Shown piece after piece: positions 5,940-6,420 of a DNA stretch of 64,000 nucleotides. Below the pieces are notes generated by a model that was given only the letters and a program-made list of their open reading frames with translations, searched no databases and was not told where the DNA came from. Each line of letters opens with the position of its first letter. The first letter of the stretch is position 1. The stretch is from IMG/VR virus record IMGVR_UViG_3300022187_000019; one strand, written 5' to 3'. The position numbers and the translations under genes were made by a program. Source of the stretch: a virus (Duplodnaviria; Heunggongvirae; Uroviricota; Caudoviricetes).

Positions 5940-6420
5940 CGCTGGGCCACAAAGAATATGGTCGTTATTCGGACGATCGAGGTTGAGCCGTGACGCGGGG
6001 GCAGAGCCCGCCACCTCCACCATCTGCACTGACAGCGCGCCCAAGCGTAATGCTGACAGTCGGAACGCCGGTTAGGGTTTAGCGACCCTAGCGCCAAAGT
6101 CTTAGCGGATGGAGGTGTTGGTTGTCAGTGCAGTTGATGGGGGTGAATTAGGATCGAGCGGCAAGGCTGAGAGAAGGACGCGACCCGTTTAGACACCGCC
6201 CGTCATGCGGATCACCGACGTAACTGTCAACGACAACGAAGTTGTCGAGATGCGCCTCGCGGCGTGATCTCAGCCGGACGAATGTGAGGGCTTCGGCCTA
6301 AACTGTGTCCGGTGAATTCCTTGGGGATCAACTCCTAAGGTGCGGGCTGGCCCACCGAGCAACAGAACGGGCCACACAGTTCAGATGGGGGTCCAGCACG
6401 ACCCCACCCCTGACCGCTAG
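5940..6420 (+). ncRNA. ssrA: two-piece (circularly permuted) tmRNA: acceptor piece ends ACCA at 6022, coding piece starts GGGGGUG at 6139, tag frame 6226-6267
   Basis: T-arm gcggg-GGCAGAG-cccgc then CACCTCC+ACCA (5995-6022) pairs with GGGGGTG at 6139 through a G3:U70 wobble pair; 6139-6162 resembles the E. coli tmRNA 5' end; tag peptide ends LAA then TGA (6265-6267); boundaries approximate. Confidence 0.55.

What the first reader, a model, noticed from the sequence alone, without database searches (positions are those of the whole stretch)
5940..6420. Circularly permuted two-piece tmRNA (ssrA) in a phage-like context
The acceptor piece has the T-arm gcggg-GGCAGAG-cccgc, then the acceptor 3' strand CACCTCC, discriminator A and CCA, ending at 6022. 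At 6139 a new 5' end, GGGGGUGAAUUAGGAUCGAGCGG, closely resembles the standard tmRNA 5' end (GGGGCUGAUUCUGGAUUCGACGGG) and pairs with CACCTCC through a G3:U70 wobble, the alanine identity element. Exactly 90 nt later an in-frame tag begins, GUC AAC GAC AAC GAA GUU GUC GAG AUG CGC CUC GCG GCG UGA, giving (A)(V)NDNEVVEMRLAA*, the ANDN...LAA pattern of alphaproteobacterial proteolysis tags. The order acceptor-piece then intervening then coding-piece is the permuted layout of alphaproteobacterial ssrA. A tmRNA inside a mobile element that also carries 14 tRNAs and RtcB suggests the element arms itself against ribosome-stalling or tRNA-cleaving host defences.
Basis: partly seen in the sequence, partly recalled or inferred. 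Interest (0 to 1): 0.75.

Follow-up and report, generated by a model that had tools for sequence, protein, structure and literature searches.

The report
Phage-encoded two-piece tmRNA gene
This is a real, intact circularly permuted (two-piece) tmRNA gene carried by a Lacusarx-like phage of sphingomonad bacteria, but phage tmRNAs of this kind are already known and the closest relative's copy is already annotated and published.

Summary
Rfam's permuted-tmRNA model (79.6 bits, threshold 47) and its alphaproteobacterial tmRNA model (68.8 bits, threshold 50) both hit window 5922-6376 on the + strand. These are the T-arm, the acceptor 3' strand with A-CCA ending at 6022, the new 5' end at 6139, G3·U70, and the tag VNDNEVVEMRLAA* at 6226-6267.

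The window is a tailed phage related to Sphingobium phage Lacusarx, Erythrobacter phages XM05 and L02, and a 126-kb phage-like contig in the Sphingobium sp. MK2 assembly. All of them carry the same gene next to the same tRNA array.

Across 10 phage-borne relatives the acceptor stem and T-arm pair in every sequence, with compensatory changes, and G3·U70 never varies. The excised spacer always forms a helix, though its sequence is unrelated between phages. The tag keeps NDN...LAA through synonymous codon changes. The gene is therefore under selection for function.

It is not new in kind. Lacusarx ssrA was published in 2017, and surveys list dozens of two-piece phage tmRNAs.

Local peculiarities are a Val (GUC) resume codon, a hairpin inside the tag frame, an extra hairpin after the stop codon, a 91-nt 3' hairpin domain, and unexplained structured RNAs on both flanks. 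The counter-defence role is plausible but untested.

The parts
5920..5937 (+). Leader hairpin upstream of the acceptor piece: CCGCGC, loop UUCUCA, GCGCGG
   Evidence: Read from the sequence. It is kept in the Sphingobium sp. MK2 contig as CCGUGG/CCACGG, with two compensatory changes, and is nearly identical in Lacusarx. It lies inside the Rfam alpha_tmRNA hit 5922-6376.
5941..6022 (+). Acceptor piece. P2b 5' strand GGUCG 5960-5964; P2a 5' strand GCCGU 5987-5991; GAC linker; T-arm 5995-6011; acceptor 3' strand 6012-6018; A6019; encoded CCA 6020-6022. The 5' boundary is inferred, not mapped.
   Evidence: Rfam alignments. Pair counts on 10 phage-borne relatives: T-arm and acceptor stem 100% paired, P2a 86%, P2b 72%, and 13 of 22 pairs show changes on both sides. 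The 5' end at about 5941 is inferred from the 82-nt acceptor RNA of Caulobacter (my recollection of Keiler et al. 2000).
6023..6138 (+). Intervening segment of 116 nt, removed during maturation. The arms 6023-6036 and 6121-6134 form a 13-of-14-bp helix that extends the acceptor stem. UGAU at 6135-6138 is the leader before the RNase P site.
   Evidence: All 11 relatives have a helix of 7-14 base pairs (8-15 positions, at most one mismatch) starting 0-3 nt after CCA and ending 3-5 nt before GGGG. The arm sequences are unrelated and the segment lengths range from 31 to 132 nt. The MFE fold of the precursor shows the same extension, z=-4.6.
6139..6225 (+). 5' part of the coding piece. Acceptor 5' strand GGGGGUG 6139-6145 (G3 = G6141); D-loop analogue AAUUAGGAUCGA 6146-6157; P2a 3' strand GCGGC 6158-6162; P2b 3' strand CGACC 6181-6185; pseudoknot-1 region; upstream box GUAACU 6220-6225.
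   Evidence: Rfam alignments. G·U at the third acceptor pair is invariant in 10 of 10, and the D-loop analogue is nearly invariant.
6226..6267 (+). Tag reading frame. Resume codon GUC (Val), 13 codons, stop UGA 6265-6267. Encoded peptide VNDNEVVEMRLAA, with an alanine added first from the charged tmRNA. Inside it is the hairpin GACAAC 6232-6237 / GUUGUC 6241-6246.
   Evidence: ARAGORN relaxed call. The tag is identical in the MK2 contig. Related tags occur in Lacusarx, L02, XM05, L109, L004/L006, L106, L009 and L101, with synonymous changes in the N, D, V, E and A codons. The 6-bp hairpin is present in all 5 aligned close relatives.
6268..6374 (+). 3' part of the coding piece. Extra hairpin 6274-6312 (CCGGAC...GUCCGG enclosing GGGCUUCGGCCU); conserved hairpin CCUUGGGG/CUCCUAAGG 6319-6340; hairpin UGGCCC 6348-6353 / GGGCCA 6369-6374 with the conserved loop ACCGAGCAACAGAAC.
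   Evidence: The extra hairpin exists only in the window and the MK2 contig, and it covaries: CCGGGC/GCUCGG and GGUCUUCGGACU. The other two hairpins are kept, with compensatory changes, in 5 phages and match the Rfam alpha_tmRNA consensus.
6375..6465 (+). 3' hairpin domain of 91 nt. It has about 24 bp of nearly continuous stem, C-rich internal and terminal loops, and the conserved CCCCUGACCGC. It could be part of the coding RNA or a trailer that is processed off; which is unknown.
   Evidence: RNAalifold on the window, Lacusarx and MK2 gives 30 pairs, 10 of them with changes on both sides that keep the pair. No Rfam family matches at E<=1. The sequence is absent from XM05, L02 and L109.
3..1564 (+). 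Context: array of 13 tRNA genes on the same strand
   Evidence: ARAGORN and Rfam. The gene order matches that in Lacusarx, XM05, L02 and the MK2 contig, where the tmRNA follows the array.
10758..11999 (+). Context: RtcB RNA ligase gene, downstream on the same strand
   Evidence: Pfam PF01139, E=1.2e-122.

Best explanation
Window 5920-6465 is a functional ssrA gene of a tailed phage, in the circularly permuted alphaproteobacterial form.

What the sequence shows:
- The gene order is acceptor piece, a 116-nt spacer, then coding piece.
- The two pieces can be held together by a 7-bp acceptor stem and the P2 helices.
- The acceptor stem carries G3·U70, A73 and an encoded CCA.
- The coding piece carries an open tag frame ending in LAA plus a stop codon.

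What is inferred from what is known of tmRNA:
- One precursor is transcribed, and the spacer folds into a helix that extends the acceptor stem.
- Host RNase P cuts 5' of G6139, and host 3' processing exposes CCA at 6022.
- Host alanyl-tRNA synthetase charges the RNA through G3·U70.
- Host SmpB and EF-Tu deliver it to stalled ribosomes. No smpB was found in the window.
- Translation resumes at GUC 6226 and appends (A)VNDNEVVEMRLAA. This keeps the NDN motif used by alphaproteobacterial SspB and the C-terminal LAA used by ClpX, so tagged products go to host proteases.

The likely benefit to the phage is extra ribosome-rescue capacity during infection. That is when truncated messages accumulate, through host mRNA decay or through host RNases and toxins. 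The gene would then be one part of a translation-maintenance module that also includes the tRNA array and the RtcB ligase.
For: - Two covariance models score above their curated thresholds. The same two models hit all the relatives that were checked.
- On 10 phage-borne relatives, 90.5% of cells pair, against 70% in shuffles and 37-44% when partners are slid. 13 of 22 pairs change on both sides. The acceptor stem and T-arm are 100% paired. G3·U70 is present in 10 of 10.
- The spacer helix is kept in 11 of 11 relatives with unrelated sequences.
- Downstream hairpins covary.
- Tag peptides keep NDN and L/I-A-A while the Asn, Asp, Val, Glu and Ala codons vary synonymously.
- The gene is full length and sits among phage genes on both sides, in the same place in three isolated phages.
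- The DNA motif of this resume-and-tag region was absent from one genome each of 185,579 bacterial and archaeal species. This lineage therefore looks phage-borne rather than freshly copied from a host.
- Literature: the Lacusarx tmRNA is published (PMC5648845). 402 of 18,146 phage genomes carry tmRNA, and 53 of 133 unique forms are two-piece (PMC9004378). RtcB acts chiefly on SsrA in E. coli (PMC9650030).
Against: - There are no expression, processing, charging or tagging data for this phage or any close relative.
- ARAGORN at default settings rejects the gene.
- The middle P2 helix of the Rfam permuted model is not formed, and the leader hairpin of the alpha model aligns poorly.
- The resume codon is Val rather than the usual Ala.
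- Codons 3-7 of the tag are locked in a hairpin. That could be a structural constraint rather than a peptide constraint, and it might hinder reading.
- The host's own tag could not be retrieved for comparison.
- The pattern was strict. It missed the MK2 contig, which has AACCG where the pattern needs AACTG. 'Absent from bacteria' therefore holds for that exact motif only.
Confidence: 0.82

Rival explanations
1. The phage tmRNA acts mainly as a competitor. It takes over SmpB and stalled ribosomes from the host tmRNA, so that host tagging is blunted or redirected. This is the idea in the Lacusarx paper ('counteracting host tmRNA-related tagging'). It is also what the tRNA-domain-only tmRNA of mycobacteriophage DS6A is thought to do.
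For: - No smpB gene was found in the window, so the RNA must use host SmpB.
- The phage lineage has its own tag subfamily, NDN-x-VV with a Val resume codon in several members, so its products are distinguishable from host-tagged ones.
- A tRNA-domain-only molecule inhibits tmRNA in E. coli (Mao et al. 2009, as cited in PMC4131195 and PMC11915505).
Against: - Unlike DS6A, this gene keeps a complete tag frame with stop codon, and its degradation determinants (NDN, LAA) are preserved through synonymous changes.
- The downstream helices covary.
- A pure competitor would not need any of this.
Confidence: 0.1
2. It is a decaying passenger: a host ssrA picked up by imprecise excision, or the remains of an integration site, with no function now.
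For: - tmRNA genes are common integration sites, and the window encodes a tyrosine integrase at 23174-24535.
- Most IMG/VR contigs carrying the alpha-type tmRNA 5' motif have 0-2 tRNAs within the few kilobases fetched around the motif. They may be host genes at prophage ends, though this was not verified.
- ARAGORN's default miss and the imperfect fit to parts of the Rfam models.
Against: - The gene is full length with both pieces.
- Compensatory changes occur in every helix across at least 10 lineages, and the tag frame is open in all of them.
- It sits 17 kb from the integrase and next to the tRNA array in every relative.
- Lacusarx was reported as not temperate (PMC5648845).
Confidence: 0.04
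3. The window is bacterial chromosome and this is the host's own ssrA next to a prophage.
For: The closest relative lies in an assembly labelled Sphingobium sp. MK2.
Against: - That contig is 126.5 kb, about the size of Lacusarx (130 kb). In the 8 kb fetched it carries the same tRNA array, HslV-like gene and primase.
- In the window, phage genes flank the tmRNA on both sides (fibre proteins, primase, RtcB, terminase).
- The same arrangement is found in three isolated virion genomes.
Confidence: 0.02

Closest known systems
ssrA of Sphingobium phage Lacusarx (NC_041927 / KY629563, 74819-75212; Nielsen et al. 2017, PMC5648845)
   Same: Same gene in the same place: after the Ser-Cys-Trp end of the tRNA array, and before the primase-like gene and RtcB. 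It has the same permuted layout, the same acceptor stem GGGGGUG/CACCUCC and the same 3' hairpin domain. The tag is ANDNDVVTAEVRLAA.
   Different: - Identity is only 73-77% across the tmRNA.
- The resume codon is GCC (Ala) rather than GUC (Val).
- The spacer is 74 nt rather than 116 nt.
- There is no hairpin after the stop codon.
- An HNH endonuclease gene is inserted just 5' of the acceptor piece.
- There is no HslV-like gene.
tmRNA on contig NODE_9 (126,565 bp) of the Sphingobium sp. MK2 assembly (NZ_JAZDXA010000011.1)
   Same: This is the closest sequence found: 85% identity over 6134-6465. It has an identical tag frame, the same post-stop hairpin and the same 3' domain. Both Rfam models hit it, at 97 and 87 bits.
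   Different: - The spacer is 69 nt with an unrelated sequence.
- It lacks the tRNA-like element (window 5761-5883) and the structured insert (window 6505-6722).
- Whether a tmRNA is annotated in that record was not checked.
Two-piece tmRNA of Caulobacter crescentus and other Alphaproteobacteria (Keiler, Shapiro and Williams 2000; Rfam RF01849)
   Same: The permuted gene order, the processing logic, G3·U70, the P2 pairing between the pieces, and an (A)ANDN...AA-type tag. The model hit is above threshold.
   Different: - This one is phage-borne, with a Val resume codon, a hairpin inside the tag frame and an extra 3' hairpin domain.
- BLAST found no similarity beyond the tRNA-like domain to the roughly 85 other alpha-type tmRNAs fetched from IMG/VR.
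Two-piece tmRNAs of marine myophages (Melnitz and the pelagimyophages; PMC9004378)
   Same: These are phage-encoded, alphaproteobacterial-type permuted ssrA genes with an extra structured RNA in the 3' domain.
   Different: - They belong to an unrelated phage group.
- Their 3' element is a glutamine riboswitch. The 3' domain here matches no Rfam family.
Mycobacteriophage tmRNAs (Bxz1-like one-piece forms; DS6A tRNA-domain-only form; PMC4131195)
   Same: A phage-encoded tmRNA alongside a large tRNA set.
   Different: - They are one-piece, not permuted.
- DS6A lacks a tag frame and is thought to inhibit tmRNA, whereas this gene keeps a full tag frame.

Membership tests
Circularly permuted (two-piece) tmRNA, alphaproteobacterial type | Score at or above the curated threshold of the family covariance models | tested here: met
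   RF04321 scores 79.6 bits against a threshold of 47. RF01849 scores 68.8 against 50.
Circularly permuted (two-piece) tmRNA, alphaproteobacterial type | Gene order: acceptor piece (T-arm, acceptor 3' strand, CCA), then an intervening segment, then the coding piece (acceptor 5' strand, tag frame) | tested here: met
   5941-6022, 6023-6138 and 6139 onward.
Circularly permuted (two-piece) tmRNA, alphaproteobacterial type | 7-bp acceptor stem with G3·U70, discriminator A73 and a 3' CCA | tested here: met
   6139-6145 pairs with 6012-6018, followed by A6019 and CCA 6020-6022. G·U is invariant and the stem is 100% paired in 10 relatives, with 3 covarying pairs.
Circularly permuted (two-piece) tmRNA, alphaproteobacterial type | T-arm of 5 bp with a 7-nt loop, and a D-loop analogue without a D-stem | tested here: met
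   T-arm at 5995-6011. The loop GGCAGAG is close to the alpha consensus GGCgGUA. The D-loop analogue AAUUAGGAUCGA is nearly invariant.
Circularly permuted (two-piece) tmRNA, alphaproteobacterial type | P2 helices that join the two pieces | tested here: met
   P2a is 5987-5991 with 6158-6162, and 4 of its 5 pairs covary. P2b is 5960-5964 with 6181-6185. The middle P2 segment of the RF04321 model is not formed.
Circularly permuted (two-piece) tmRNA, alphaproteobacterial type | Short open tag frame ending in a hydrophobic ...AA degron plus a stop codon, with the resume codon after the conserved upstream box | tested here: met
   The frame is at 6226-6267 and encodes VNDNEVVEMRLAA*. The resume codon is GUC (Val) rather than GCN, a variant shared with L02, XM05, L004, L006, L106 and MK2.
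Circularly permuted (two-piece) tmRNA, alphaproteobacterial type | Processing into two RNAs (RNase P at the coding-piece 5' end, a mature CCA end) and charging with alanine | not testable with these tools
   There is indirect support only. A precursor helix around the cut sites is conserved in 11 of 11 relatives.
Circularly permuted (two-piece) tmRNA, alphaproteobacterial type | Works with SmpB | tested here: inconclusive
The rest of the phage genome and the host were not available. Use of host SmpB is assumed.
Phage-encoded tmRNA | The gene lies inside a virus genome, not at a prophage-chromosome junction | tested here: met
   The gene is flanked by phage genes: fibre proteins, primase-like protein, RtcB, terminase. 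It is syntenic with the isolated phages Lacusarx, XM05 and L02.

The most novel reading that the evidence does not exclude
The tmRNA may be the core of a variable 'RNA island' whose other members are undescribed phage RNAs that work with it and with RtcB.

The candidates are:
- a tRNA-like gene with a roughly 50-nt insert in its anticodon arm (5761-5883), 91% conserved with Lacusarx while the neighbouring tmRNA is only 73-77% identical;
- a roughly 220-nt RNA closed by a 22-bp stem and containing a T-arm (6505-6722), bracketed by two copies of a phage promoter motif;
- a conserved UGUCUCC hairpin RNA (about 6746-6834).

In this reading the phage lineage has also specialised its tmRNA. The Val resume codon, the hairpin over codons 3-7 and the NDN-x-VV tag would make its products distinct from host-tagged ones. 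Damaged tmRNA and tRNA-like RNAs would be resealed by the phage RtcB as a counter to host RNases.
Probability: 0.12. Interest if true: 0.6.

Novelty: new member of a known kind. Interest (0 to 1): 0.27.

Why it matters
It adds one more well-supported case, from sphingomonad phages, to the known set of phage-encoded two-piece tmRNAs. It also shows that this phage lineage keeps the gene under selection for both RNA structure and tag peptide.

There are three practical points. Default ARAGORN misses the gene here, in XM05, in the MK2 contig and in an IMG/VR relative. The copies in XM05 and L02 have no annotated feature in their GenBank records. Lacusarx and its Sphingobium host are a culturable system in which the long-open question of what phage tmRNAs are for could be tested.

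It does not change how tmRNA or phage biology is understood.

Tried and rejected
- **Ro/Y-RNA module.** I suspected the T-arm-containing structured RNA plus RtcB might be one. The 541-aa ORF at 2155-3780 has no TROVE or any other Pfam or NCBIfam hit, and no Y-RNA family hits at E<=1. Dropped.
- **Second circularly permuted tRNA-like domain at 6585-6665.** The T-arm is followed by GUCCGAG, which pairs with CUCGGGU and is followed by AAGUGGUAGA. XM05 has a similar arrangement with two compensatory changes. A pattern search for this layout in IMG/VR gave 69 hits, nearly all with one fixed 52-nt span, the spacing expected for two ordinary adjacent tRNA genes. I did not inspect them. No true homologue turned up. 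Left unexplained, not claimed.
By hand I found no bulge-helix-bulge. Not supported.
- **HslV-like protease next to the tmRNA.** GenBank relatives are annotated HslV or proteasome. Here Pfam gave nothing, NCBIfam gave only a weak proteasome-beta hit (E=0.0019), a PDB sequence search gave only NosL noise, and a single-sequence AlphaFold model was unusable at pLDDT 42.5. The assignment stays weak.
- **smpB in the window.** None found.
- **Megablast of window 25-50 kb against phages.** No match. The phage nature of that part rests on Pfam hits.
- **Host tag for comparison.** A literature search for remembered sphingomonad tags found nothing.
- **More members of the window/Lacusarx/MK2 subgroup.** A metagenome scan returned only one true hit, a 4-kb contig 99.9% identical to the window.
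Full report
**1. Is it there?**

Yes.
- T-arm GCGGG-GGCAGAG-CCCGC at 5995-6011;
- acceptor 3' strand CACCTCC at 6012-6018, then A6019 and CCA at 6020-6022;
- a new 5' end GGGGGTG at 6139-6145 that pairs with 6012-6018 through a G·U at the third pair;
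- an open frame GTC AAC GAC AAC GAA GTT GTC GAG ATG CGC CTC GCG GCG TGA at 6226-6267.

Rfam's general permuted-tmRNA model RF04321 matches 5960-6267 at 79.6 bits (threshold 47, E=1.3e-13). The alphaproteobacterial model RF01849 matches 5922-6376 at 68.8 bits (threshold 50, E=1.1e-16). A more permissive scan of 5500-7000 adds nothing else of note.

ARAGORN at default settings lists 13 tRNAs and no tmRNA. With its score threshold relaxed to 80% it reports a permuted tmRNA with the tag VNDNEVVEMRLAA*.

Two small corrections apply. The resume codon begins 87 nt after G6139, not 90. The gene is wider than 5940-6420.

**2. What is the window?**

It is a tailed phage.
- The first 25 kb match Erythrobacter phage XM05 (79.6% identity over 25% of the query), Erythrobacter phage vB_EliS-L02 and Sphingobium phage Lacusarx.
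- Pfam finds fibre proteins (Gp80 and Gp77 families), a DUF5906 primase-like protein, RtcB (E=1e-122), NAMPT, a NUDIX protein, a tyrosine integrase and a large terminase.
- The closest relative of the tmRNA region is a 126.5-kb contig in the Sphingobium sp. MK2 assembly. In the 8 kb fetched it carries the same tRNA array, tmRNA, HslV-like gene and primase, so it looks like a phage genome assembled with its host.
- A 4-kb JGI metagenome contig (Ga0070752_1014654) is 99.9% identical to window 5500-7434.

**3. Do relatives have the same gene?**

Yes. In Lacusarx it is annotated as ssrA and mentioned in the genome paper (PMC5648845). In XM05 and L02 no feature is annotated over the match, but both Rfam models hit them at 84-100 bits. 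The MK2 contig, L109 (a 163-kb IMG/VR contig with 27 tRNAs beside the tmRNA) and L006 also pass both models.

Tags in this phage group:
- window and MK2: VNDNEVVEMRLAA
- Lacusarx: ANDNDVVTAEVRLAA
- L02: VNDNDVVVARDEVRLAA
- XM05: VNDNDVVETPMALAA
- L109: ANDNTVVEMRLAA
- L004 and L006: VNDNDVVEALAA
- L106: VNDNDILEVPQLLAA
- L009: ANDNSPMVEDFRIAA
- L101: ANDNGEVVALAA

**4. Is it under selection for function?**

I joined the acceptor piece to the first 52 nt of the coding piece for 10 phage-borne relatives and counted pairs for the T-arm, acceptor stem, P2a and P2b.
- 90.5% of cells pair, against 70.0 ± 1.9% in shuffles and 37-44% when partners are slid by 1-3 columns.
- 13 of 22 pairs show changes on both sides.
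- The T-arm and acceptor stem pair in all sequences.
- The G·U at the third acceptor pair is present in 10 of 10.

The intervening segment differs completely in sequence and ranges from 31 to 132 nt. In all 11 relatives it nevertheless forms a helix of 7-14 base pairs that starts 0-3 nt after CCA and ends 3-5 nt before the GGGG. That is the structure expected of a precursor whose loop is cut out. The whole precursor folds with z=-4.6.

Downstream hairpins at 6319-6340 and 6348-6374 are kept with compensatory changes in five phages. The tag frame is open in every relative. NDN and L/I-A-A are kept while the Asn, Asp, Val, Glu and Ala codons vary synonymously (sequences). A decaying passenger would not show this pattern.

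**5. Peculiarities of this copy and its lineage**

- **(a)** The resume codon is GUC (Val). L02, XM05, L004, L006, L106 and MK2 share this.
- **(b)** Codons 3-4 (GACAAC) pair with codons 6-7 (GUUGUC) in a 6-bp hairpin present in all five aligned close relatives. This may explain the conserved 'VV'.
- **(c)** A hairpin at 6274-6312 directly after the stop codon exists only here and in MK2, and it covaries.
- **(d)** A 91-nt hairpin domain at 6375-6465 follows the last family-typical helix. Among the window, Lacusarx and MK2 it has 30 pairs, 10 with compensatory double changes, and it matches no Rfam family.
- **(e)** The spacer, at 116 nt, is the second longest of the 11. Features (c) and (e) may be why default ARAGORN fails here, but I did not test this.
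- **(f)** The exact DNA motif of the resume-and-tag region occurs in three IMG/VR contigs and in none of 185,579 species-representative bacterial and archaeal genomes. The pattern was strict and missed the MK2 contig.
- **(g)** BLAST finds no similarity between this tmRNA and the roughly 85 other alpha-type tmRNAs pulled from IMG/VR, beyond 38 nt of the tRNA-like domain.

**6. How it most likely works**

Shown by the sequence: the layout, the pairings, the alanine identity pair, the encoded CCA and the open tag frame.

Inferred from established tmRNA biology:
- processing by host RNase P and 3' trimming;
- charging by host AlaRS;
- delivery by host SmpB and EF-Tu;
- resumption of translation at GUC 6226;
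- degradation of tagged products via SspB and ClpXP, which recognise NDN and LAA in Caulobacter. That last point is from my own knowledge.

The neighbourhood supports a translation-maintenance role. It holds a 13-gene tRNA array, RtcB, and in Lacusarx also TadA. In E. coli the most frequent RtcB ligation target is SsrA itself (PMC9650030). The counter-defence reading is reasonable but untested. The competitor idea from the Lacusarx paper is weakened by the preserved degron and tag frame.

**7. Comparison with what is known**

Phage tmRNAs are established.
- Mycobacteriophages and Bacillus phage G carry them (PMC4131195).
- 402 of 18,146 phage genomes have one. There are 133 unique forms, and ARAGORN of them two-piece (PMC9004378).
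- The 2025 tmRNA database lists 79 unique bacteriophage sequences (PMC11915505).

The nearest annotated relative is Lacusarx ssrA, at 73-77% identity. This is therefore a new member of a known kind.

**8. Surroundings that remain unexplained**

*Upstream.* At 5761-5883 there is a tRNA-like element with a 7-bp acceptor stem, a Tyr-like D-arm and a canonical T-arm, but a disrupted anticodon region.
- It folds with z=-3.0.
- It is 91% identical to an unannotated stretch of Lacusarx, whereas the adjacent tmRNA is 73-77% identical.
- It is absent from MK2, XM05 and L02.
- ARAGORN with introns allowed gives inconsistent calls in the two phages.
- Lacusarx has an HNH endonuclease ORF inserted exactly between this block and the acceptor piece.

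*Downstream.*
- The motif TTGACR-N17-TATCT occurs only twice in 64 kb, against 0.01 expected.
- The two copies bracket a highly structured segment that folds with z=-5.0. It has a 22-bp closing stem (6505-6526 with 6701-6722) and an internal T-arm. It has no homologue in the phage database and no Rfam match.
- That segment ends in a small hairpin RNA with an invariant UGUCUCC and a strong terminator. This hairpin is present in five of the phages.

These are recorded as things noticed in passing. They are not part of the verdict.

Noticed in passing
window 5761-5883 (+); Lacusarx L001 3864-3986: A tRNA-like element just upstream of the tmRNA. It has a 7-bp acceptor stem GGUCGGU/ACCGAUC, a Tyr-like D-arm and the T-arm GAGGGUUCGAAUCCCUC. 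The anticodon region is replaced by an 8-bp stem that carries two small hairpins.

Neither default ARAGORN nor Rfam calls it. With introns allowed, ARAGORN says Cys(GCA) with a 49-nt intron in the window, but Tyr(GUA) with a 46-nt intron in Lacusarx. It is 91% identical between the two phages, against 73-77% for the adjacent tmRNA. It is absent from MK2, XM05 and L02.
   Followed up: partly
window 6505-6722 (+), with promoter-like motifs at 6467-6494 and 6895-6922: A segment of about 220 nt closed by a 22-bp stem. It contains a T-arm (GAGGGUUCGACUCCCUC, 6585-6601) and a D-loop-like AAGUGGUAGA. The region 6440-6840 folds with z=-5.0.

It lies between the only two copies of TTGACR-N17-TATCT in the window (0.01 expected). 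It has no convincing ORF, no Rfam hit and no homologue in the phage database or the fetched loci. XM05 has two orphan T-arm motifs in the equivalent spacer.
   Followed up: partly
window about 6746-6834 (+); XM05 L002 about 2362-2455; L02 L003 about 4524-4620; L109; Lacusarx L001 about 5068-5150: A conserved small hairpin RNA with an outer CCGG.../...CCGG stem whose sequence differs between phages, an invariant UGUCUCC, and a strong terminator hairpin followed by a T-rich tail (TTTTCTTT in the window). In XM05 it sits about 10 nt after the TTGACG-N17-TATCTA promoter. The only database echo is a sub-threshold hit to RF02278, the Betaproteobacteria toxic sRNA (23 bits, E=0.064).
   Followed up: partly
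window 6955-7401 (+): This gene is annotated 'HslV family peptidase' or 'proteasome subunit' in XM05 and L02. It follows the tmRNA in the window, XM05, L02, L109 and MK2, but not in Lacusarx.

The window copy appears to start at ATC 6955, after GGAGAC, where MK2 appears to have TTG. The N-terminus reads TTI. Family assignment is weak here: no Pfam hit, NCBIfam proteasome-beta E=0.0019, and an AlphaFold single-sequence pLDDT of 42.5.
   Followed up: partly
Lacusarx L001 4008-4553: An HNH endonuclease ORF is inserted exactly at the junction corresponding to window 5951|5958. That is between the conserved leader block and the P2b strand of the acceptor piece, and the ORF overlaps the start of the annotated ssrA.
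   Followed up: no
L209 (NZ_JAZDXA010000011.1, Sphingobium sp. MK2 NODE_9, 126,565 bp, cov 128); L213 (Ga0070752_1014654): A contig in a bacterial isolate assembly looks like a complete Lacusarx-like phage genome. It is the closest relative of the window's tmRNA, with an identical tag. Separately, a 4-kb metagenome contig is 99.9% identical to window 5500-7434.
   Followed up: partly
XM05 L002 1714-2118; L02 L003 3807-4234: The GenBank records of Erythrobacter phages XM05 and vB_EliS-L02 show no annotated feature over their tmRNAs, although both pass the Rfam thresholds. XM05 instead has a 45-aa 'hypothetical protein' on the opposite strand at 2051-2188, overlapping the 3' end of the tmRNA hit. 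Default ARAGORN misses the gene in the window, XM05, MK2 and L006.
   Followed up: yes
window 1396-1479 (+): This tRNA-Cys(GCA) is 84 nt long and has an extra stem-loop in the variable region, which is unusual for a class I tRNA. The Lacusarx and XM05 counterparts are 74-75 nt.
   Followed up: no
L118 (IMGVR_UViG_3300020442_004360) 8159-8493 and 9090-9481: ARAGORN calls two permuted tmRNA genes with different tags (ANDNFASEDYALAA and ANENFALAA) within 1.3 kb of each other on one 9.6-kb viral contig.
   Followed up: no
window 18978-21572 (-), 23174-24535 (-), 26388-27608 (-): A NAMPT/NAPRTase gene next to a NUDIX-domain gene, which may be NAD salvage (my interpretation), a tyrosine integrase, and a BCS1-like AAA ATPase. 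They appear to be part of the same 'miscellaneous' module described for Lacusarx.
   Followed up: no
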